Of a stretch of DNA of 64,000 nucleotides, positions 2,846 through 64,000 are shown piece by piece; within the stretch, counting starts at the first letter, position 1, and the number at the start of each line of letters is the position of its first letter. A program made the translations under genes and the position numbers. Source of the DNA: Malacoraja senta (taxonomy: Eukaryota); NCBI GenBank assembly GCA_038087875.1, contig CM075992.1, forward strand, positions 2,172,001-2,236,000, read 5' to 3'. Below the pieces are notes generated by a model, which did no database searches, was not told where the DNA came from, and saw only the letters and a list, made by a program, of their open reading frames with translations.

Positions 2846-4189
2846 ATGCCAATGGAGAGACAAGAGAATACTGGAATCTGGAGCAAAAAATAAATCATTG
2901 GAAGAAAGCAGGTCAAACAACGTCTGGCAAAGAAATGGTTGATGTTTGGGGTTGACGCTCTATATTAGGACTGCGAGTGGAGATAGAGAGAGGAGCATTT
3001 TGTGTATCTGAGGTAAAATTGATGGATGATAAATGTTGCTTGTGTTTCTTGGACCAAATACATACAGCTGTGAAGTGTGGAAATTAATTGCTCTGAACTC
3101 AGCTGCTCTAAAAGTGCTTTAGGCTATTCCACAGGAGTGTGAAAGCTCCAAGTTAGCTATTTATAGCGTACAAAATAATTACCCTCACACCTGTGCCTGA
3201 GAATGTTCGGCAAACAATAAAAAGCACCTTGGCAGACTGCAAGCATTAGAGACTTCAAACTGGAACTCGAAGCAAAGAAAACTGCTTGAGGAACACAGCA
3301 GGCCAGGAGGGTATAGAGAGGTATGGGGCATGTGGTAGCAAGCAATGGGTGGATGTTGATGAGGAAGAGTGATTGAAGAATCATCAGGAGGAGGAGGAGG
3401 AAGGAATGGTGGAGAAAAGTTGCAGATAATAGAGGCTGCCGATTCTGAGGGTAGGTAATGAGTGGAAACTGGGTTAGTGGCAGATGGAAATAAAAGCATG
3501 AGGAATGGTGATGACTAAGGGAGAGGGGGAAGAAATGTGGGTGACAGCTGTGGGAAGAAGGGTGTGTGAGAAGGACAGGGTAGACGGAGGGAGAAAACTG
3601 GATGTTCAGTCTATTGTATTTAGATTAGAGGTGGAATATGAGGTGCTGTTAATAATTATCATTTGGCTTCTCCCATGCATTGGAGGAGTAGGATAAGTTG
3701 GTATGGGAAGGAGGGGTAATTGTTAACAGCTGAGAAATCTGGGCATCGTCTCCCAAGAACAGAGGTGGGTGATGTTTTGTGTCTGCATCCTTCTTCAGAC
3801 CACTTCTTCAATCCATCTCAAAGGTTGTATTAATGCTGGTCAGCGACACTGTACACGACGAATAAAGTAAACTTCCCTTTGCTTTACACTCTCTAAAGCG
3901 ATCAACATGACTAATAAACAAAAGGGGAAATGGTGGTTTTCAAACAAGGCGTTAAGGGGATTTTTACAAGATGATTTGAGATGAGGTGATCCCATGCCTG
4001 GGGCAAAATGGGGAAGCTGCAGGGAACTCGCAAGTGGTGAGTTAGTCACGTAGTATGATAGAACTTTATTTTTCCCAGGAGGGAAAATGATAATGGTGAT
4101 GGGACAATCCCAGAGATCATGAGTACAGGGACTGACAGCCCAAAGGCGATCACTAGAGGGTCCATTGCCTACAATATGATGGTGGAGAC

Positions 4190-5712
4190 AGCCCAGAGAT
4201 GATGAGCAGTCCACCAGCTACATAATGGTGGATCAGGCAGCCCACAGCCTATGAGTAGAGGGTCTGCCGCCTGCAATAATGATGGGGTAGACAGCCCAGA
4301 GGCGATGAGTAGAGAGACCACCAGCCACATTTATGATGGGGAGACAGCCCAGAGGTGGCGAGTAGAGGGTCCTCCAGCCCCTTAATGGTGGATCAGAAAG
4401 GCCAGAGGTGGTGAGTAAAGGGACCTCTAGCCACATTAATGGTGGATCAGACAGCCCAGAGGTGGTGAGTAGAGCAAAAAGATACCAGTGTAGAGGGACC
4501 TCCAGCCACATAATGGTGGATCAGACAGCCCAGAGGTGGTGAGTAGAGGGACCACTAGCCACATAATGGTGGATCAGACAGCCCAGAGGTGGTGAGTAGA
4601 GGGACCTCTAGCCACATTAATGGTGGATCAGACAGCCTGGAGGTGGTGAGTAGAGGGACCACCAGCCACATAATGGTGGATCAGAAAGGCCAGAGGTGGT
4701 GAGTAGAGGGACCACCAGCCACATAATGGTGGATCAGAGAGGCCAGAGGTGGTGAGTAGAGGGACCACCAGCCACATAATGGTGGATTAGAGAGGCCAGA
4801 GGTGGTGAGTAGAGGGACCGACCACCAGCCACATTAATGGTGGATCAGACAGCCCAGAGGTGGTGAGTAGAGGGACCACCAGCCACATAATGGTGGATTA
4901 GAGAGGCCAGAGGTGGTGAGTAGAGGGACCTCTAGCCACATTAATGGTGGATCAGACAGCCCAGAGGTGGTGAGTAGAGGGACCACCAGCCACATAATGG
5001 TGGATCAGACAGCCCAGAGGTGGTGAGCAGAGGGACTTCCAGCCACATTAATGGTGGATCAGACAGCCAGGAGAGGTGGTGAGTAGGGAACCACCAGCCA
5101 CATAATGGTGGATTAGAGAGGCCAGAGGTGGTGAGTAGAGGGACCAGCCAGCCACATAATGGTGGATCAGACAGCCCAGAGGTGGTGAGTAGAGGGACCA
5201 CCAGCCACATAATGGTGGATTAGAGAGGCCAGAGGTGGTGAGTAGTGACCCCACCAGCCACATTAATGGTGGATCAGACAGCCCAGAGGTGGTGAGTAGA
5301 GGACCACCAGCCACATAATGGTGGATTAGAGAGGCCAGAGGTGGTGAGTAGAGGGACCTCTAGCCACATTAATGGCTGGATCAGACAGCCCAGAGGTGGT
5401 GAGTAGAGGGACCACCAGCCACATAATGGTGGATTAGAGAGGCCAGAGGTGGTGAGTAGAGGGACCACCAGCCACATTAATGGTGGATTAGAGAGCCCAG
5501 AGGTGGTGAGTAGAGGGACCACCAGCACATAATGGTGGACTCAGACAGCCCAGAGGTGGTGAGTAGAGGGACCGACCACCAGCCACATTAATGGTGGATC
5601 AGACAGCCCAGAGGTGGTGAGGTAGAGGGACCACCAGCCACATAATGGTGGATCAGACAGCCCAGAGGTGGTGAGTAGAGGGACCGACCACCAGCCACAT
5701 TAATGATGGGGG
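4190..5712. repeat. 53-54 bp minisatellite, about 28 copies (unit GGTGGATCAGACAGCCCAGAGGTGGTGAGTAGAGGGACCACCAGCCACATAAT)
   Basis: Tandem unit read directly; copies degenerate toward the left end; explains the repetitive ORFs in the track. Confidence 0.95.
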
Positions 5713-5714
5713 AG

Positions 5715-5990
5715 TCGCTACTTCCTGGTTCCATCCCGTTACCCCTGACAACGGGTGGGAGGGGGGGGACGTGCTCCGTCCAATCACGGGGCGTCAAGTG
5801 ACGCTGGCGGTGACGCCATACGCCGGCGCCGCGCCACGTGGTGTTTTGTGACGCGAGGAGAGCGCGCCGCTGCATGGGCGGGCGGGCGGGCTGGCTTGGT
5901 CGGGATGCGGCAGGGACGGGGACAGGGGCAAGGCCCGGGGACGGGTTGCCGCCGGCCTGAGGTACACGCACCGCCCGCTCCTCTTGCTGC
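5715..5990 (+). promoter_or_regulatory. CpG-island promoter and putative non-coding first exon, probably of FBXW9
   Basis: CpG-dense; CCAAT 5780-5784; GTGACGC x3 (5798, 5810, 5848); E-box CACGTG 5835-5840; possible donor GAG|GTACAC at 5961/5962. The link to FBXW9 is inferred. Confidence 0.55.
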
Positions 5991-6375
5991 TTGGTTTCTT
6001 GGTCCTCCAAAATATTCCAATTGGAATTTAAACTGGAGGTGGTGGAGGGAGGACTTAAGCCAGAAAGGGTTTTTGGGAAGAAAGAGCTACCTTAAATTTA
6101 ATTGCATCTGGTTGGGTAACTATGGTAACTATGGTAGGGTGAAGATTATTCCATGCTTCACCTTATTATTCCATTGCTTCACCTCCGCAGCGCCCAGCCC
6201 AGCCAGCCCAAGGCGCTCATCTCACAAGGTGTTAGGAGCAGACTCAGGCCATTCAGCCCATCAAGCTGATCTATCTTGAGGAGGGAGCAGTTAGAGAGGA
6301 GGTGTGTAACTCTCCGGAGGGAGGAGGAGAACTTCTTCAAAGTAGGCATACCTTGAGGAAGGAGAACTTTCTATC

Positions 6376-7044
6376 CCTTGTCAATTCTTCCCTTCCCTCC
6401 CATACCACCCCCTCCCCTGGTACTTTCCCTTGCAACCGCAAGAGATGCAACACTTGTCCCTTCACCTCCCCCTCCACTCCATTCAAGGACCCAAGCAGGC
6501 GTTCCAGGTGCGACAGAGGTTCACCTGCATCTCCTCCAACCTCATCTATTGCATTCGCTGCTCTAGATGCCAGCTGATCTACATCGGTGAGACCAAGCGG
6601 AGGCTTGGCGATCGTTTCGCCGAACACCTCCAGTCGGTCCGCAATAACCAACCTGAACTCCCGGTGGCTCAGCACTTCAACTCCCCTTCCCATTCCGTAT
6701 CTGACCTCTCTGTCCTGGGTCTCCTCCATGCCCACAGCGAGCAACACCGTAAATTGGAGGAAATGCCCCTCATATTCCGCTTGGGCAGTCTACATCCTGG
6801 GGTTTGAACATTGAATTCTCCCAATTCTGCTAGCCCTTGCTGTCCCCTCCCCTTCATCAGCCATCTGGTTGTCTCCTCCCCTCCCCCAGCCCTCGGGCTC
6901 CTCCTCCGCCTTTTTCCTTTTTTCCTTTCTTCTCCCTACCCCCTATCAGTCTGAAGAAGGGTTTCGGCCCGAAACGTTACCTATTTCCTTCGCTCCATAG
7001 ATGCTGCTGCACCTGCTGAGTTTCTCCAGCATTTTTGTGTACCT
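6376..7044 (+). mobile_element. 5'-truncated Penelope-like element (GIY-YIG endonuclease C-terminus plus 3' tail), frameshifted
   Basis: PCNRKRCNTC linker, then FTCISSNLIYCIRCSRCQLIYIGETKRRLGDRFAEH (GIY-YIG); 14-bp TSD GAGAACTTTCTATC at 6362-6375 and 7045-7058. Confidence 0.85.
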
Positions 7045-43608: not shown

Positions 43609-43808
43609 NNNNNNNNNNNNNNNNNNNNNNNNNNNNNNNNNNNNNNNNNNNNNNNNNNNNNNNNNNNNNNNNNNNNNNNNNNNNNNNNNNNNNNNNNNNN
43701 NNNNNNNNNNNNNNNNNNNNNNNNNNNNNNNNNNNNNNNNNNNNNNNNNNNNNNNNNNNNNNNNNNNNNNNNNNNNNNNNNNNNNNNNNNNNNNNNNNNN
43801 NNNNNNNN
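43609..43808. other. Assembly gap (200 N)
   Basis: Run of N. Confidence 1.
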
Positions 43809-44810
43809 GGGTTATGGGGGGGGGGTTATGAGGGGGGTGGGTTTATGGGGGGATGGGTTTATGGGGGACGGGTTTATGGGGGGGTGGGTTTATGGGGGAG
43901 ATGGGTTTATGGGGGGATGGGTTTATGAGGGGGGGTTATGGGGGAGGTGGGTTTATGAGGGGATGGGTTTATGGGGGGGGTTATGGGTTTATGGGGGTGG
44001 GTTTATGAGGGGGTGGGTTTATGGGGGATGGGTTTATGGGGGGATGGGTTTATGGGGGGGGGGGTTATGGGGGGATGGGTTTATGGGGGGAGGTGGGTTT
44101 ATGGGGGTGTGGGGAAGGGTTTAATGGGGGGATGGGTATATGGGGGTGGGTTTATGAGGGGGTGGGTTTATGGGGGATGGGTTTATGGGGGGATGGGTTT
44201 ATGGGGGGTGGGTTTATGGGGATGGGTTTATGGGGGGGGTTTATGGGGGGATGGGTTTATGGTTTATAGGGGGGTGGGTTTATGGGGGGGGGGGTTTATA
44301 GGGGAGGTGGGTTTATGGGGGGATGGGTTTATGAGGGGGGGTTATGGGGGAGGTGGGTTTATGAGGGGATGGGCTTAGGGGGGGGGTTATGGGGATGGGT
44401 TTATGGGGGGGGGGTTATGGGGGGATGGGTTTATGGGTGATGGGGGATGGGTTTATGGGGATGGGTTTATGGGGGGGGTTATGGGGATGGGTTTATGGGG
44501 GATGGGTTTATGGTGATGGGGGATGGGTTTATGGGGATGGGTTTATGGGGGGGGGGGTTATGGGGATGGGTTTATGGGGGGGGTTATGGGTTTATGGGGG
44601 ATGGGGGATGGGGATGGGTTTATGGGGGGCGGTTTATGGGGGGGGGGTTATGGGGATGGGTTTATGGGGGGGGGTTATGGGGATGGGTTTATGGGGGATG
44701 GGGGATGGGGATGGGTTTATGGGGGATGGGGGTGGGTTTATGGGGGGCGGTTTATGGGGGATGGGTTTATGGGGGGGGGGGTTATGAGGGGATGGGTTTA
44801 TGGTTTATGT
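43809..44810. repeat. G-rich degenerate minisatellite (about GGGGATGGGTTTAT)n
   Basis: Read directly; about 1 kb, abuts the gap. Confidence 0.95.
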
Positions 44811-57239: not shown

Positions 57240-57500
57240 GTGGTCCCGGGGCCTGGTGTTGAAGCCTTCCTAGGCCCAAAGGTCGATAGCTGCGGTGAGT
57301 TTAGACCCTTCCCTGGGCAAACCGGACAGGAAAGCGCGGGGGTCGAGGAGGCCCGTGGTATAGGCCCGGTTTCTACAGTAACCCGCCAGCGGAAGTCGTC
57401 GCATCCTTACCTCGGGGCCACTCGCAGCTGCCTAGTGCGCAGGCGCGCCCTCCCTAGCAACCAGCGGGGCCTACAATCACCTCCCACCTCCAGGCGCACC
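57240..57500 (-). promoter_or_regulatory. CCDC130/YJU2B CpG promoter and non-coding exon 1
   Basis: Donor CCGAG|GTAAGG at 57411/57410; NRF1-like TGCGCAGGCGCG 57436-57447; RFX half-site CCTAGCAAC 57453-57461; ETS GCGGAAGT 57389-57396. Confidence 0.7.
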
Positions 57501-57546
57501 TCCTTCACTTAGTTGTAAATATGAAGCTCCACAACAGAGATAGACA

Positions 57547-57773
57547 TATATATATATATACATATATATACAGAGACAGAGACAGAGACAGAGACAGAGA
57601 CAGAGACAGAGACAGAGACAGAGACAGAGACAGAGACAGAGACAGAGACAGAGACAGAGACAGAGACAGAGACAGAGACAGAGACAGAGACAGAGACAGA
57701 GACAGAGACAGAGACAGAGACAGAGACAGAGACAGAGACAGAGACAGAGACAGAGACAGAGACAGAGACAGAG

Positions 57774-57856
<83 letters not shown>
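57547..57856. repeat. Compound microsatellite (TA)n-(GAGACA)~33-(TTAG)~20
   Basis: Read directly. Confidence 0.95.
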
Positions 57857-60497
57857 CTCAGTAAGGACACAAAGTGCAGGGTCTCCACCCGAAACGTCAC
57901 CCATTCCTTCTCTCCAATAATGCTGCCTGTCCCGCTGAGTTACTCCAGCATGATTTTGTGTCTACGGCGTAAACCAGCATCTGCAGGTCAGGCAGCATCT
58001 CTCATACATGTTATTTATTTAATTCAGCTCAAAACCATGAGAGGAATAGGTCGGGCAGATGCACAGTCTCTTGCCCAGAATAGGGGAATCGAGAACCAGA
58101 GGACGTAGATTCATGTGAGGAGAAAAAAATGTAATGGGAACCAAAGGGGTCTCTTTTTCACACAAAGTGAGGTGGGTATATGGAGTGAGCTGCTGGAGGT
58201 GGTAGTTGAGGCAGGTACTATCTCAAAGTTGAAGAAACATTTAGACAGGTAATGGATAGGAAGATTTAGAAGGATATGGGTCAAACGCATGTAGGTCGGA
58301 TTGGTGTAGATGGGACATGTTGGTCGGTGTGGGCAATTTGGGTCGAAGGGCCTGTTTAAGGTTTAGGGTAGATGAGGAGAAGATGGTTCTCCTTGTGGAA
58401 GAATCTAGAACTAGGAGGTTGATGTTTTTCACTTCACCTCGGTACACATGACAGTAAACTGAACTCATGTTAAAAATCAGGGTCGTCCATTTAAGATTGT
58501 GAAGGATTGCAGCTGTGCATCTCTTGCAAATTATTTTTAAGGCAGAGATAGATGGATACTTAATGCAAGAGGGTGAAAAATTACTGTGGATAGGTGAGAA
58601 TGAGCAGTTAAGGTTAGTCAGTTGTGATTATATTGAATGGTGGAGCAGGCTCAAGGAATCAAGTGGGATTGTCCTGGTCCTAATTTGTAGTTCATATACC
58701 TATTTCCACTTCATTTCTTTGCATTCCCATCACCACTTACATTCCATGTACTCTAATCTTTTGTGTTGCACCTAAGATTTCTGAACTCCCAAATACATGA
58801 CATTAACTGATTTGACTTTATATGTCCTGCTGGATACAAGCTAAAAAAAAATGCAGGTTTGACAAATGTAATATCCCATTTGTAAATGTATGAAAGGACA
58901 AAACAGTTGATAGTGCAGGGCACAAGGTAGGATTGTGAGACAGGTGAAGAAACATCACTGTCCTTTATACCACATTGAACAATTTTAGATCATAGCCACC
59001 GTCCCATTGTTTCATATAGCAAGTTTTGATAATGATTCTGCCTTTCCACTGTTGACCATCGGATTTGCACTTCTACATCCCCTCTCAAATCACTTCCTAA
59101 AGGTATTTCATTCTCCTAGTTTCTTCATCTCCAGCTGTCTGACATGTCATCCTTAATTTTTGATATTTAGGGTTCCCCTCCACCAGTTGACAACCACTTC
59201 CCACACTTCTGCTCTCATCCCCTTCTCAATCGCTCCCTCCCAGAACCAGGATAGGGGACTTTTTGTCCTCATCTTCCACCTCACCCTCAAATTCCTTCTC
59301 TTCAGAGATGCTGCCGCCTGAGTTACTCCAACAAATGTAAGGAGATGCTTCCTTCAAGGGACTCTATCACCACTACACCCTTTCTTTTCTTCCCATTCAG
59401 GCATAAAAGACTCATCACGTGATCTTTATCGCCTCTCTTACAGTGCTCAGGACCGCATTTTCAGGTGAAGTAGCGATTACTTATTTCAGTTTGGTACACA
59501 GCTGTCACTGTTTACTATGCAGTTTTCTGTATAATCCTGATGGAACCTGCAAGCTGAAACCTATATTTCTGATTATCATTCTGAAATGCAAACTCTGTAT
59601 TCCTCTCCACTGATTCTGTTTGTCGGCCAAGTACTTAAAGCGTCCATTTTAATATATTTTTCATTATATTACCTTTCATTTCTAGCGAATATTGTTGGCG
59701 TGTTATGTAGTAAACATGGAGGTCAGTTCATGAACCGTTGGTTTCCAAGAACTGCTTTGTTATTAAGAACTGATAATATACTTCAGTGATGTTGATTGTA
59801 GGATAAGTATAGACCAGAACTGTTCTGTTCTTTGAAGTATTACAATGGGATATTTTCAGACCACCCAAGACAACAGATGGGGGCCTTGGTTTGACATCTC
59901 ATCTGTAAGCCAGAGCCCACACTCCCACCCCTATCACAGAGCGTTCCCTCATGTTGCACTGGAATGTCAGACTTTTTTTATGTTCAAGTCTCTGATGTGG
60001 GATTTAGATTTAACCTGCTGACTCAAAGTTGAGAGTGCGACCTGTGGCAGACTGATGCCTTTGATTTGAGATGTGTGTAAAAAGGGAAAGAAATAATCTT
60101 TTGACGATCTGAAGCTCATCCTGGTCTGGAAACTATAACCCACTATGTCACAAATGACACCAAATAAATGTTATTCTGTGTCATTTGTGATATAGTGGGT
60201 TATAGACATGAGTCTTTGCAGATGGTGGAAACTTGAGCAAAAGCAAAGTGCTGGACGAACTCAGTGGTCAGGCAGCATCTGTGGAGGGAATGGACAGGCG
60301 ATATTTCAGGGCAGGTCCCCTCTGCAGATGCTACCTGACCCACTGAGTTTCTTCAAATCTTACTTTAAATTATGTAGAAGAGTAAAGAAACAAAAGTGAG
60401 CTGATTGAAGCTTGTAAATGAACAAGGAACAAGGTACACAAAAATGCTGGAGAAACTCAGCGGGTGCAGCAGCATCTATGGAGCGAAGGAAATAGGT

Positions 60498-60600
60498 GCT
60501 CGGGGGTCGCGTAACTATTTAGCATGTGGGAGTCTCGTTCGTTATCGGAATTAACCAGACAATCGCTCCATCAACTAAGAACGGCCATGCACCACCACCC
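60498..60600 (-). pseudogene. 18S rRNA fragment (about 103 bp), dispersed pseudogene
   Basis: Minus strand GGGTGGTGGTGCATGGCCGTTCTTAGTTGATGGAGCGATTGTCTGGTTAATTCCGATAACGAACGAGAC...TAGTTACGCGACCCCCGAGC matches the conserved eukaryotic SSU rRNA segment with a few changes. Confidence 0.9.
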
Positions 60601-61552
60601 TCCTTTCATGTTTGACCCTTGGAGTCAGTGGAAGTGTGAAATTTCTCTCATCACTTGGATTACACTTTGAGGAGAGAAAAATTTGAGATTCGGAATAAAA
60701 TTCACTCGCACAGAGTTGACGTGGGAAAAAAGTAAATAAATAAACACAATTCTTTTATTCAACGTGTTTGTTGACGCATTTGCAGATAGCAAGATGTTGT
60801 GTTATGGAATGTGATATGGATCATCTTCTAGGTACACAACCCCCCCCCCCCCCCATTCCCAACTTCTTAAATATTGGTGTCCTCTATACTGTTCCCACAT
60901 GAATAAAGGGTTGTCTGGAAAAATAAATGTACTGTGGCGTTAATGCTTTGGACCACCAGGTGGCAGTATGTGGCTGCTTGTGTTGAAAGGAGCTGTTTTT
61001 CCATTGTCAGATTGTAGAGTTAGCCTCACAGTCTGAAGAAGGGTTTCGGGCCCGAAACGTTGCCTATTTCCTTCGCTCCATAGATGCTGCTGCACCCGCT
61101 GAATTTCTCCAGCACTTTTGTCTACCTCCAGTATCACAATAGTTGTACCATGCACACAGCATTCATGTCAGATTTGCTGATGGTTCCAACATCACATCTC
61201 AGTTATAGACCAGTGGATCACCCAAATCCTGGAACTCTCCAGTAATTTATAAAGCTTAGCTAGATACTAGTGACGAGCAGGAACTCCGGCTCACACAGTA
61301 ACATCTACATGGCAAAGTCCATTTGGAAATAATAGTTATTTCTTCTGTTGATTGGCTCTGAGTGGATGGGATGATGGTGGCGTCATAATGTAGCAATGCG
61401 GTTGTCAGAGCAGCATCTCTGGAGAGAAAAAAATGGATGACGTTTCGGGTGGAGATCCTTCTTCAGACCATGGGGCCAGCTGTTGGATTGGCTCCCACTG
61501 TCCATTGCTTTCTTCAGCTGCATGTAAGAAATGGATGGTGGGTTGGGACATA

Positions 61553-62230
61553 TCTCTCTCTCCCCCTCTCTCTCTCCCACCCCCCCTCTCTCTCCTCCCC
61601 CATCTCTCTCCTCCCCCTTTCCCCCTCCTTTCCCTCTCCCCCTCCTTTCTCTCTCCCCCTCCTTTCTCTCTCCCCCTCCTTTCTCTCTCCCCTCCGTTCC
61701 CTCTCCCCCTCCGTTCCCTCTCCCCCTCCTTTCCCTCTCCCCCTCCTTTCCCTCTCCCCCTCCTTTCCCTCTCCCCCTCCTTTCCCTCTCCCCCTCCTTT
61801 CCCTCTCCCCCTCCTTTCCCTCTCTCTCCCCCCTTTCCCCCTTCCCCTCCTTTCCCTCTCCCCCTCTCCCTCCCTCTCCCCCTCCCCCTCCCTCTCCCCC
61901 TCCCTCTCCCTCTCCCCCTCCCTCTCCCCCTCTTCTCCCTCTCCCTCCCCCTCCTCTCCCTCCTCTCCCCTCCCTCCCCACCCCCCTCCCCCCCTGTGTG
62001 TGTGTGGGGTGTGGTTAGTGTGCATGTGAAGCCACAGCCCCCCCCCCCCCGCAACCACACGTTGAGGGGACGGACCCAGCGGTCTCCCCTCCCTCCCCTC
62101 TACCCACCCCGTCTCCCCCTCCACCCCCCCGTGTGTGTGGGGGGTGGTTAGTGTGCGTGTGAAGCCGCAGTGCCCCCCCCCGCAACCGCGTGTTGGGGGA
62201 ACAGACCCAGCGGGTCTGCACTTGGTCTAG
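61553..62230 (+). mobile_element. Candidate non-autonomous Helitron containing a CT-rich minisatellite
   Basis: 5' TC, 3' hairpin CAGACCC-AGC-GGGTCTG (62202-62218) then CTAG (62227-62230), between A and T, no TSD. Confidence 0.55.
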
Positions 62231-63132: not shown

Positions 63133-63386
63133 TGCGTAAGAAGGAACTGCAGATGCTGGTTTAAACCGAAGATAGACACAAAATGCTGGAGTAACTCAGC
63201 GGGACAGGCAGCATCTCTGGAGAGAAGGAATGGGTGACCTTTCAGGTCGAGACCCTTCTTCAGAAGTCTGAAGAGACCCTTCTTCAGAAGTCTGAAGAAG
63301 GGTCTCAACCCTAAACATCACCCATTCCTTCTCTCCAGAGATGCTGCCTGTCCCGCTGAGTTACTCCAGCATTTTGTGTCTATCTT
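63133..63386. mobile_element. Palindromic Penelope-tail insertion (representative of many)
   Basis: Two inverted tail copies; 11-bp TSD CGGCACTAAAC at 63122-63132 and 63387-63397. Confidence 0.8.
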
Positions 63387-64000
63387 CGGCACTAAACACT
63401 CATTAGTTTGAAACTATTTTCATTAAAGAGCCCATAGAGATGGAGAATTTCACACACTGCTGATGTGGTTAATGGTATTTTTGCTGCTTAGGTGTCTGCG
63501 CGTGTGCGTGCGTTCTTGGGGATAGGTTTTAGACTGCATCTTAAAGCAGAGAAAGAGCTAGTGAGGGAGATGCAGGGCTTAAGGTCTCAGCATGATAAAG
63601 CAGGGCAACTAAAAGTAATTAACAGTATTAAATTCAGGGTGATCAAGGGACCAGAATTGGAATTCAGTGGTCTTAGAGAGTGGGAATCACAGGTAAAGGA
63701 AGGGATTTGAAAACAATGCCATTTTCAAAACAAGGCATTGAATAACTAAGAGCCCATGTAGGTCAGCAGGCATGTTAAGACTGGGGGAGTAGAGGTTTGG
63801 ACTGTCTCGTATTTTGGGAGAGTGCATCTGATTAATGTTTTGAGAAAATACTAAGGAGGGGAAAGGAAGTCAGTATTGAGGGTGAAGAAGATGCTGGAGA
63901 CGATGAGAAGAAAAACATTCCTATCAGAGAGCCTAAGAGGGTACACAGCCCATCAATTAATTCATTTGCCTATTACCATGGAATTATCAGTGTTACAACA

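What the first reader, a model, noticed from the sequence alone, without database searches (positions are those of the whole stretch)
60431..60600. 18S rRNA fragment fused directly to a Penelope-type 3' tail
Seen on the minus strand: about 103 nt of sense 18S rRNA (60600-60498) run with no spacer into ACCTATTTCCTTCGCTCCATAGATGCTGCTGC...TTTTTGTGTACCTT (60497-60431), the same tail as 6979-7044 and in the same orientation. The tail starts at about the predicted hammerhead cleavage position. Inference: a template-switch or RNA-ligation chimera, or a member of an rRNA-headed SINE family using a Penelope partner. No TSD is evident.
Basis: partly seen in the sequence, partly recalled or inferred. Interest (0 to 1): 0.7.

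Follow-up and report, generated by a model that had tools for sequence, protein, structure and literature searches.

The report
Ribosomal RNA joined at ribozyme cut
A 103-base piece of 18S ribosomal RNA is fused to the tail of a Penelope-type jumping gene exactly at its predicted self-cutting site, and the same joint recurs at seven places in this genome; it most likely records broken ribosomal RNA being ligated to the self-cut transposon RNA and then copied into DNA, which would be rare evidence that this ribozyme cuts in living animals.

Summary
Observation confirmed, except that the tail at 6979-7044 lies on the opposite window strand. 60600-60498 is sense 18S (102 of 104 columns match this genome's rDNA), ending at the last base of a hairpin loop and joined, without linker or microhomology, to the first base after the predicted hammerhead cut of a young Penelope/Poseidon-type element. 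It is no one-off: the same joint stands at 7 loci (10 arms); 6 have target-site duplications, 3 are inverted twins with the joint in both arms, and one uses an older subfamily's tail. The same 18S end also heads two L1 insertions. Ordinary tail copies rarely start at the cut (2 of 98). None of 32 rDNA units carries the joint, and no master copy was found, so a SINE is not supported. Best reading (0.6): repeated RNA ligation, RtcB-like as for U6/L1, before reverse transcription; template jumping is the main rival. Against: no U6 partner (0 of 46), and cleavage and ligation are inferred, not shown. No paper or earlier scan note describing this was found.

The parts
60498..60600 (-). Sense 18S rRNA fragment, rDNA positions 681-784 as counted on the reverse complement of L071 (about human 1320-1423, inferred by offset); ends at the last base of a 7-nt hairpin loop (helix 39, label recalled)
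60431..60497 (-). Penelope-like element tail, +1 to +67 from the predicted hammerhead cut; ends at the nearer of the two tail ends (presumed reverse-transcription starts)
   Evidence: two-start model from PMC11167929
60424..60430 (-). Junctional bases at the 3' end, a 7-nt tandem repeat of the flank (possible priming slip); no target-site duplication
   Evidence: sequence; contigs of two other organisms begin to fit at 60423
60601..60607 (-). Seven flank bases identical to 18S 642-648; chance, microhomology or a skipped 32-nt hairpin, unresolved
6346..6804 (+). Reference copy: GIY-YIG endonuclease end of the partner element
   Evidence: Pfam PF01541 E 5.9e-05, over cut-off; top 40 of 1760 candidates 98-99% identical
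6946..6978 (+). Reference copy: minimal hammerhead motif, predicted cut between 6978 and 6979
   Evidence: sequence; stem II hairpin folds; architecture as in PMC4209133
6979..7044 (+). Reference copy: same tail, one mismatch to the finding, opposite window strand

Best explanation
This is one of at least seven insertions in which an 18S rRNA fragment ending at one loop base is fused to the first base after the predicted hammerhead cut of a Penelope-like element, most likely because the two RNAs were ligated to each other, again and again, before the element's reverse transcriptase copied the hybrid into DNA. Steps: (1) 18S is broken at the exposed loop, presumably leaving a 2',3'-cyclic phosphate (inferred; the recurrent end is shown). 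(2) The element's hammerhead cuts its RNA, leaving a 5'-OH (predicted from the motif). (3) RtcB or a similar ligase joins them (inferred by analogy with U6/L1). (4) The element's protein nicks the target and starts reverse transcription inside the RNA at +66 or +100, reads back across the joint and stops 14-104 nt into 18S (ends and duplications shown; mechanism from the anole element). The copies are dead ends, not a self-propagating family (inferred).
For: Same joint to the base in 10 of 10 arms at 7 loci, no linker; no microhomology except 1 ambiguous base in L069. Target-site duplications enclose 18S plus tail at 6 of 7 loci, so each went in as a unit. At 3 of 7 loci two inverted arms, one from each tail end, both carry the joint: one joined template explains this, jumping needs two identical jumps per event. 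L069 has the linked alleles of another, older subfamily, so the joint formed at least twice. In a search blind to the partner, all 3 other PLE-joined 18S copies are at +1, whereas 2 of 98 other young tail copies in 574 kb start there and 35 of 99 start near -33. The same 18S end heads two L1 insertions with poly(A) and duplications, at different L1 positions, the pattern of U6/L1. Dispersed 18S copies begin at or just after, or are altered at, the m1acp3-pseudouridine position in 4 of 5 that reach it, pointing to mature rRNA templates. RtcB joins cyclic-phosphate to 5'-OH ends (PMC6789731) and circularises hammerhead-cut RNAs (PMC7229834).
Against: No RNA evidence: cleavage, end chemistry and ligation are untested. 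0 of 46 U6 copies are followed by the tail, though U6 is the classic RtcB donor; no other cellular RNA was recognised among 43 other inspected tail starts, so the preference for this 18S end is unexplained; pairing between the ends is no better than shuffles (385 of 500). Bulk copies show no peak at the cut, and the anole study saw no reads at the cut and no need for cleavage. L055 joins +498 back to +1 through 7 untemplated bases, so the cut end can be bridged without clean ligation. A jump that uses one added base as microhomology also leaves a seamless joint. 3 of 4 dispersed copies of the downstream 18S piece cross the loop uncut. The modification signature comes from non-PLE copies. 12 of 52 candidates were not scored.
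Confidence: 0.6

Rival explanations
1. Template jumping: the reverse transcriptase runs off the hammerhead-cut 5' end and jumps onto the 3' end of an abundant 18S fragment held in the particle; no covalent hybrid RNA exists. This still needs cleavage at the hammerhead and a defined 18S end.
For: R2 polymerase does this with up to 5 added bases and microhomology (PMC4117753 passages), and a matched added base is invisible. L055 shows a bridge from the cut end with a 7-base linker. Explains the absence of U6 if particles are cytoplasmic.
Against: 10 of 10 arms have no linker although linkers are common at other 5' junctions of this element; both arms of 3 twins would need the same jump; jumps should also start from the commonest RNA 5' end near -33, and none was seen.
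Confidence: 0.22
2. Hidden master: a full-length element inserted into an rDNA unit at this 18S base is co-transcribed by polymerase I, and internal initiation yields 18S-headed copies (an incipient rRNA-headed SINE).
For: rDNA arrays are collapsed in assemblies; 17 of 32 units seen carry a 28S insertion, so the arrays tolerate elements; six young loci are near identical; internal initiation needs no 3' end.
Against: 0 of 32 assembled units carry the joint; two tail subfamilies would need two masters at the same base; it does not explain the same 18S end on L1; no shared private change.
Confidence: 0.12
3. DNA-level accident: separate 18S retrocopies and tail insertions placed side by side, or an assembly artefact.
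For: This locus lacks a duplication, and no listed contig spanned the joint.
Against: Same joint at 7 loci, duplications enclosing both parts at 6.
Confidence: 0.03

Closest known systems
U6/LINE-1 chimeric pseudogenes formed by RtcB ligation (Moldovan et al. 2019, PMC6789731; abstract and first part of Discussion read)
   Same: Fixed 3' end of a cellular RNA joined in sense to a retroelement RNA, then retrotransposed in cis with target-site duplications; the two 18S/L1 copies here have variable L1 starts like U6/L1.
   Different: Donor is an internal 18S fragment, not U6's natural end; acceptor end is fixed at a ribozyme site instead of made by an unknown nuclease; the carrier is a Penelope-like element with internal initiation and twin arms. 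Ligation is shown there, inferred here.
[quoted passage not shown]
   Same: Recurrent rRNA fragments, mostly sense, fused to a retroelement; ligation or template switching proposed.
   Different: 18 loci of 28S with L1; the words 18S and Penelope do not occur in its main text; no fixed acceptor position.
Poseidon element of the green anole, PAc (Frangieh et al. 2024, PMC11167929; parts 1-2 of 4 read) and minimal PLE hammerheads (Cervera and De la Pena 2014, PMC4209133; part 1 of 4 read)
   Same: Tandem pLTR-ORF units, hammerhead overlapping the start region, two tail ends, nicking and extension of both strands.
   Different: Those studies found weak or protein-assisted cleavage, no reads at the cut and no role for it; no captured cellular RNA is described in the parts read.
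Non-LTR retrozymes (PMC7229834 passages; bioRxiv 10.64898/2026.07.22.740005 abstract and passages)
   Same: Hammerhead-cut RNA ends ligated by RtcB; non-autonomous derivatives of Penelope-like elements.
   Different: Self-circularisation of tandem monomers, not capture of host rRNA; the chimeras here have lost the ribozyme.
rRNA-derived SINEs (SINE28, SINE18; recalled, seen only as terms in one search listing)
   Same: rRNA head on a retroelement tail.
   Different: Those are amplified families with a consensus; here 7 loci, variable heads, two subfamilies, no master.

Membership tests
Penelope-like element (Penelope/Poseidon type), as source of the tail | GIY-YIG endonuclease at the C-terminus | tested here: met
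   PF01541 over cut-off in window 6346-6804 and L189
Penelope-like element (Penelope/Poseidon type), as source of the tail | Reverse transcriptase in the same unit, tandem pLTR arrangement | tested here: met
   YIDD-bearing frame runs into the endonuclease, then hammerhead, tail and next unit in L203/L204; units about 3.9 kb apart on C1122. RT motif recognised by eye, no Pfam RT hit sought on it
Penelope-like element (Penelope/Poseidon type), as source of the tail | Minimal hammerhead in the pLTR and optional tail extension | tested here: met
   Core and stem II present, stem I only 2-3 bp; no Rfam hammerhead hit; tail ends at about +66 and +100
Penelope-like element (Penelope/Poseidon type), as source of the tail | Clade placement by RT phylogeny | not tested
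   No tree built; Poseidon type is by resemblance
RNA-ligation chimeras (U6/L1 type) | Fixed donor 3' end, sense orientation, no linker | tested here: met
   10 of 10 arms and 2 L1 copies end at 784
RNA-ligation chimeras (U6/L1 type) | One insertion, duplication enclosing both parts | tested here: met
   6 of 7 loci; not this one
RNA-ligation chimeras (U6/L1 type) | Cyclic-phosphate donor and 5'-OH acceptor; RtcB dependence | not testable with these tools
   Acceptor chemistry follows from hammerhead cleavage if it occurs; donor chemistry unknown
RNA-ligation chimeras (U6/L1 type) | Chimeric RNA present that matches no genomic locus | not testable with these tools
   RNA runs offered held only 0.06 of the words
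SINE (rRNA-headed) | Amplified from a master with shared diagnostic changes | tested here: not met
   No shared change against rDNA or tail; two subfamilies
SINE (rRNA-headed) | Full-length source copy in the genome | tested here: not met
   None among 10 junction matches or 32 rDNA units; assembly may lack one
SINE (rRNA-headed) | Own promoter in the head | not testable with these tools
   An internal 18S piece has no known promoter (general knowledge)

The most novel reading that the evidence does not exclude
The minimal hammerhead of this Penelope-like element cuts in the germ line and its 5'-OH end is ligated to ribosomes broken at one 18S loop; the same broken 18S end is handed to L1 and nearly the same end to a CR1-type LINE. 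The genome thus keeps a fossil record of rRNA mis-repair and gives a base-exact in vivo readout of a ribozyme whose activity and purpose are an open question, and shows a route by which rRNA-headed SINEs could be born.
Probability: 0.45. Interest if true: 0.8.

Novelty: new variant of a known kind. Interest (0 to 1): 0.66.

Why it matters
Whether the minimal hammerheads of Penelope-like elements cut in vivo is unsettled: activity in vitro is low or protein-assisted and no reads at the cut were seen in the anole. A recurring joint at exactly the predicted base is genomic evidence that they do, under both leading explanations. It extends ligation-type chimeras from U6/L1 to a third retroelement class, names a defined 18S break shared by unrelated elements, and yields one specific junction that RT-PCR or RNA-seq can test at once.

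Tried and rejected
Reciprocal 3' fragment of 18S: one search seemed to show copies starting at the cut, but 3 of the 4 relevant ones cross the loop and end at 839-843; rejected. Peak of ordinary 5' ends at the cut: not seen in 574 kb; a genome-wide count was not obtained, so a small peak stays open. U6 as partner: 0 of 46 (biased to long copies; one is interrupted internally by an older pLTR piece). 5.8S: one dispersed copy, not on this tail. 28S: the one 600-nt probe returned only array units, so 28S partners are untested. Base-pair splint: null. L055 as a clean RNA circle: weakened by a 7-base linker. The inverted tail copy at about 61030-61128 as a twin arm of this locus: other subfamily alleles and no enclosing duplication. 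Reads: only part of the locus could be examined, with contigs; none of the listed pieces spans the joint and a hole proves nothing; two other organisms have flank contigs that stop fitting at 60423, a weak hint of an empty site. Runs with small word shares were not used. miRNA matches are hairpin chance hits. Earlier scan notes: nothing relevant.

Full report
Observation. Window 60600-60498 (-) is sense 18S rRNA (Rfam RF01960, E 1.2e-10) and matches the genome's own rDNA units in 102 of 104 columns. Counted on the reverse complement of L071 it covers 681-784. In the fold of the rDNA sequence, 778-784 is a 7-nt hairpin loop, so the fragment ends at the last loop base (z -1.8; the label helix 39 is recalled). 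The next base, 60497, is +1 after the predicted cut of a minimal hammerhead; 60497-60431 equals +1 to +67 of the young element with no mismatch. The bases either side of the joint share no microhomology between donor and acceptor. There is no target-site duplication here. The copy at 6979-7044 is on the opposite window strand. The window lies on C16 of a 1.94-Gb genome; its repeats look like those of cartilaginous fish (recalled, not tested).

The partner. Upstream of the 6979 copy lies a GIY-YIG frame; the best 40 of 1760 candidates are 98-99% identical, so the family is young. Longer copies show RT and GIY-YIG, then hammerhead, tail and the next unit's N-terminus. Tails end at about +66 or +100, as in the anole Poseidon element, where the two ends are internal starts of reverse transcription, both target strands are nicked and extended, about 55-60 nt beyond the far start are required, and hammerhead cleavage was dispensable with no RNA reads at the cut (PMC11167929, parts 1-2 of 4; its supplementary figures were not seen). 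By analogy, tail-only copies cannot be templates (inferred).

The family. The junction pattern gives 10 matches at 7 loci and 0 for the reversed control; a search by reference found the same 10 among 40 of 74 candidates scored. 18S heads are 14-103 nt long, nearly identical to rDNA, and all end at 784; nine tails start at +1 and one (L069) at +1 or +2. Duplications of 6-18 nt enclose head and tail at 6 of 7 loci. Three loci are inverted twins, each with one long-tail and one short-tail arm, both with the joint. L069 is split by a 590-nt insertion with an 8-nt duplication; its tail is 92% identical to the G-start copy and carries the G-start subfamily's alleles, which are linked among unselected copies (the alternative long-tail ends occur only with G starts; C at +61 is enriched with G starts but not exclusive). 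So the joint arose at least twice. None of 32 assembled rDNA units carries it.

Is +1 special? In one search, blind to the partner, 40 of 52 candidates were scored: 32 array units, this locus and 7 dispersed copies, of which 3 are PLE-joined, all at +1. In 574 kb of unselected DNA, 99 young tail copies were found; 35 start at -36 to -27 and 3 at the cut, namely this locus, an internal deletion and a tandem (one search agrees: 3 of 89 at 0/+1). At 2%, three hits of three have a rough chance of 1e-5. This also means most ordinary insertions come from uncut RNA, in line with the anole work. A genome-wide count was not obtained.

Is 784 special? The other 4 dispersed hits: L073 has 18S 681-784, the same two ends as this locus, on 490 nt of an L1-type 3' end with poly(A) and a 15-nt duplication; L074 has 635-784 on a 352-aa frame (zf-RVT, E 6e-05, under cut-off) with poly(A) and a 12-nt duplication; L075 has 611-778 on a CR1-type tail; L076 has 609-775 joined to another 18S piece (L1 and CR1 labels partly recalled). 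Other dispersed copies end at 648, 665, 667, 769, 776 and 839-843, and three cross the loop, so 784 is a hot spot, not the only end. Position 609 is the HinfI-site U, human m1acp3-pseudouridine 1248, added late in the cytoplasm and blocking reverse transcriptase (passages of PMC4872110 and 10.1101/840132; mapping inferred). Of 5 dispersed copies reaching it, two start at 609-611, one has a substitution, one a 2-nt deletion, one is unchanged: templates were likely mature rRNA.

Other partners at +1. One search listed 56 tail starts with non-hammerhead upstream bases (a filter passing about a quarter of random contexts, exact young tail only). Six are 18S arms; 43 others were inspected and 7 not. 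They are inverted arms, tandems or bare tails; Rfam on 17 of them gave only hairpin chance hits. L055 joins the element's own +498 back to +1 through 7 untemplated bases. U6: 0 of 46 copies followed by the tail. The selectivity for this 18S end is unexplained; proximity of the translating ribosome to the cut is speculation.

Mechanism. A donor with a fixed 3' end and an acceptor with a ribozyme-fixed 5' end are what RtcB needs (PMC6789731 abstract and Discussion part 1; RtcB circularises hammerhead-cut monomers, PMC7229834 passages). The twins are the best discriminator: two cDNAs from different starts both cross the same joint. Jumping stays possible since matched added bases vanish (PMC4117753 passages) and L055 shows bridging. 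A hidden rDNA master fails to explain two subfamilies and the L1 copies. Odds: ligation 0.6, jumping 0.22, master 0.12. Ligation and jumping both require cutting at the hammerhead in vivo.

Known and new. Closest are U6/L1 and 28S/L1 chimeras (PMC11838501 passages; its supplements not seen). Searches listed no paper on rRNA captured by a Penelope-like element or on this 18S break; the library lacks most subscription journals and repeat databases, and a 2026 review (PMC13247085 passages) names only U6/L1 as pro-transposon ligation in the passages seen. No earlier scan note matched. Verdict: real, a new variant of a known kind, interest 0.66.

Noticed in passing
L115, L117, L118, L251 (U6 copies) and L075: U6 joined to a CR1-type 3' tail at four loci; L117 joins at the same LINE base as the 18S chimera L075, hinting at a defined acceptor end in that LINE too.
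   Followed up: partly
window 6946, 25170, 51525, 61030 and many fetched stretches: Most short copies of the element start at about -33, just before the hammerhead core and right after a pyrimidine tract ending in CAG: a transcription start or a splice acceptor.
   Followed up: partly
L055:947-1611: Twin insertion whose long arm reads +4 to +498, then 7 untemplated bases, then +1 to +101: a circular or rejoined element RNA, or a jump from the cut end.
   Followed up: partly
rDNA contigs C3656, C1339, C465, C5075, C2095, C2163; L265:784-4764: 17 of 32 rDNA units are interrupted at one 28S site; one insertion holds an open 1326-aa frame with R2-like motifs (motifs recalled, not scanned).
   Followed up: partly
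L181-L184: Four dispersed 18S pieces share a second 3' hot spot at 839-843, without poly(A) or tail, inside other repeats.
   Followed up: partly
L263:699-849 on the reverse strand: Dispersed 5.8S copy, 100% identical, ending at the mature 3' end and joined to an unidentified sequence.
   Followed up: no
L069, about 1539-2130 on the reverse strand: A 590-nt element with terminal inverted repeats and an 8-nt duplication (hAT-like, recalled) splits the tail.
   Followed up: no
window 60601-60607 and L247: The 5' flank ends in 7 bases equal to 18S 642-648, and L247 ends at 648; a skipped 32-nt hairpin is possible.
   Followed up: no
window 4170-5740: Tandem array of a 53-54-nt unit; further minisatellites at 43800-44800, 57500-57800 and 61530-62000.
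   Followed up: no
window 63141-63389 and others: Head-to-head inverted tail pairs of an older related family, the same twin-arm form.
   Followed up: no
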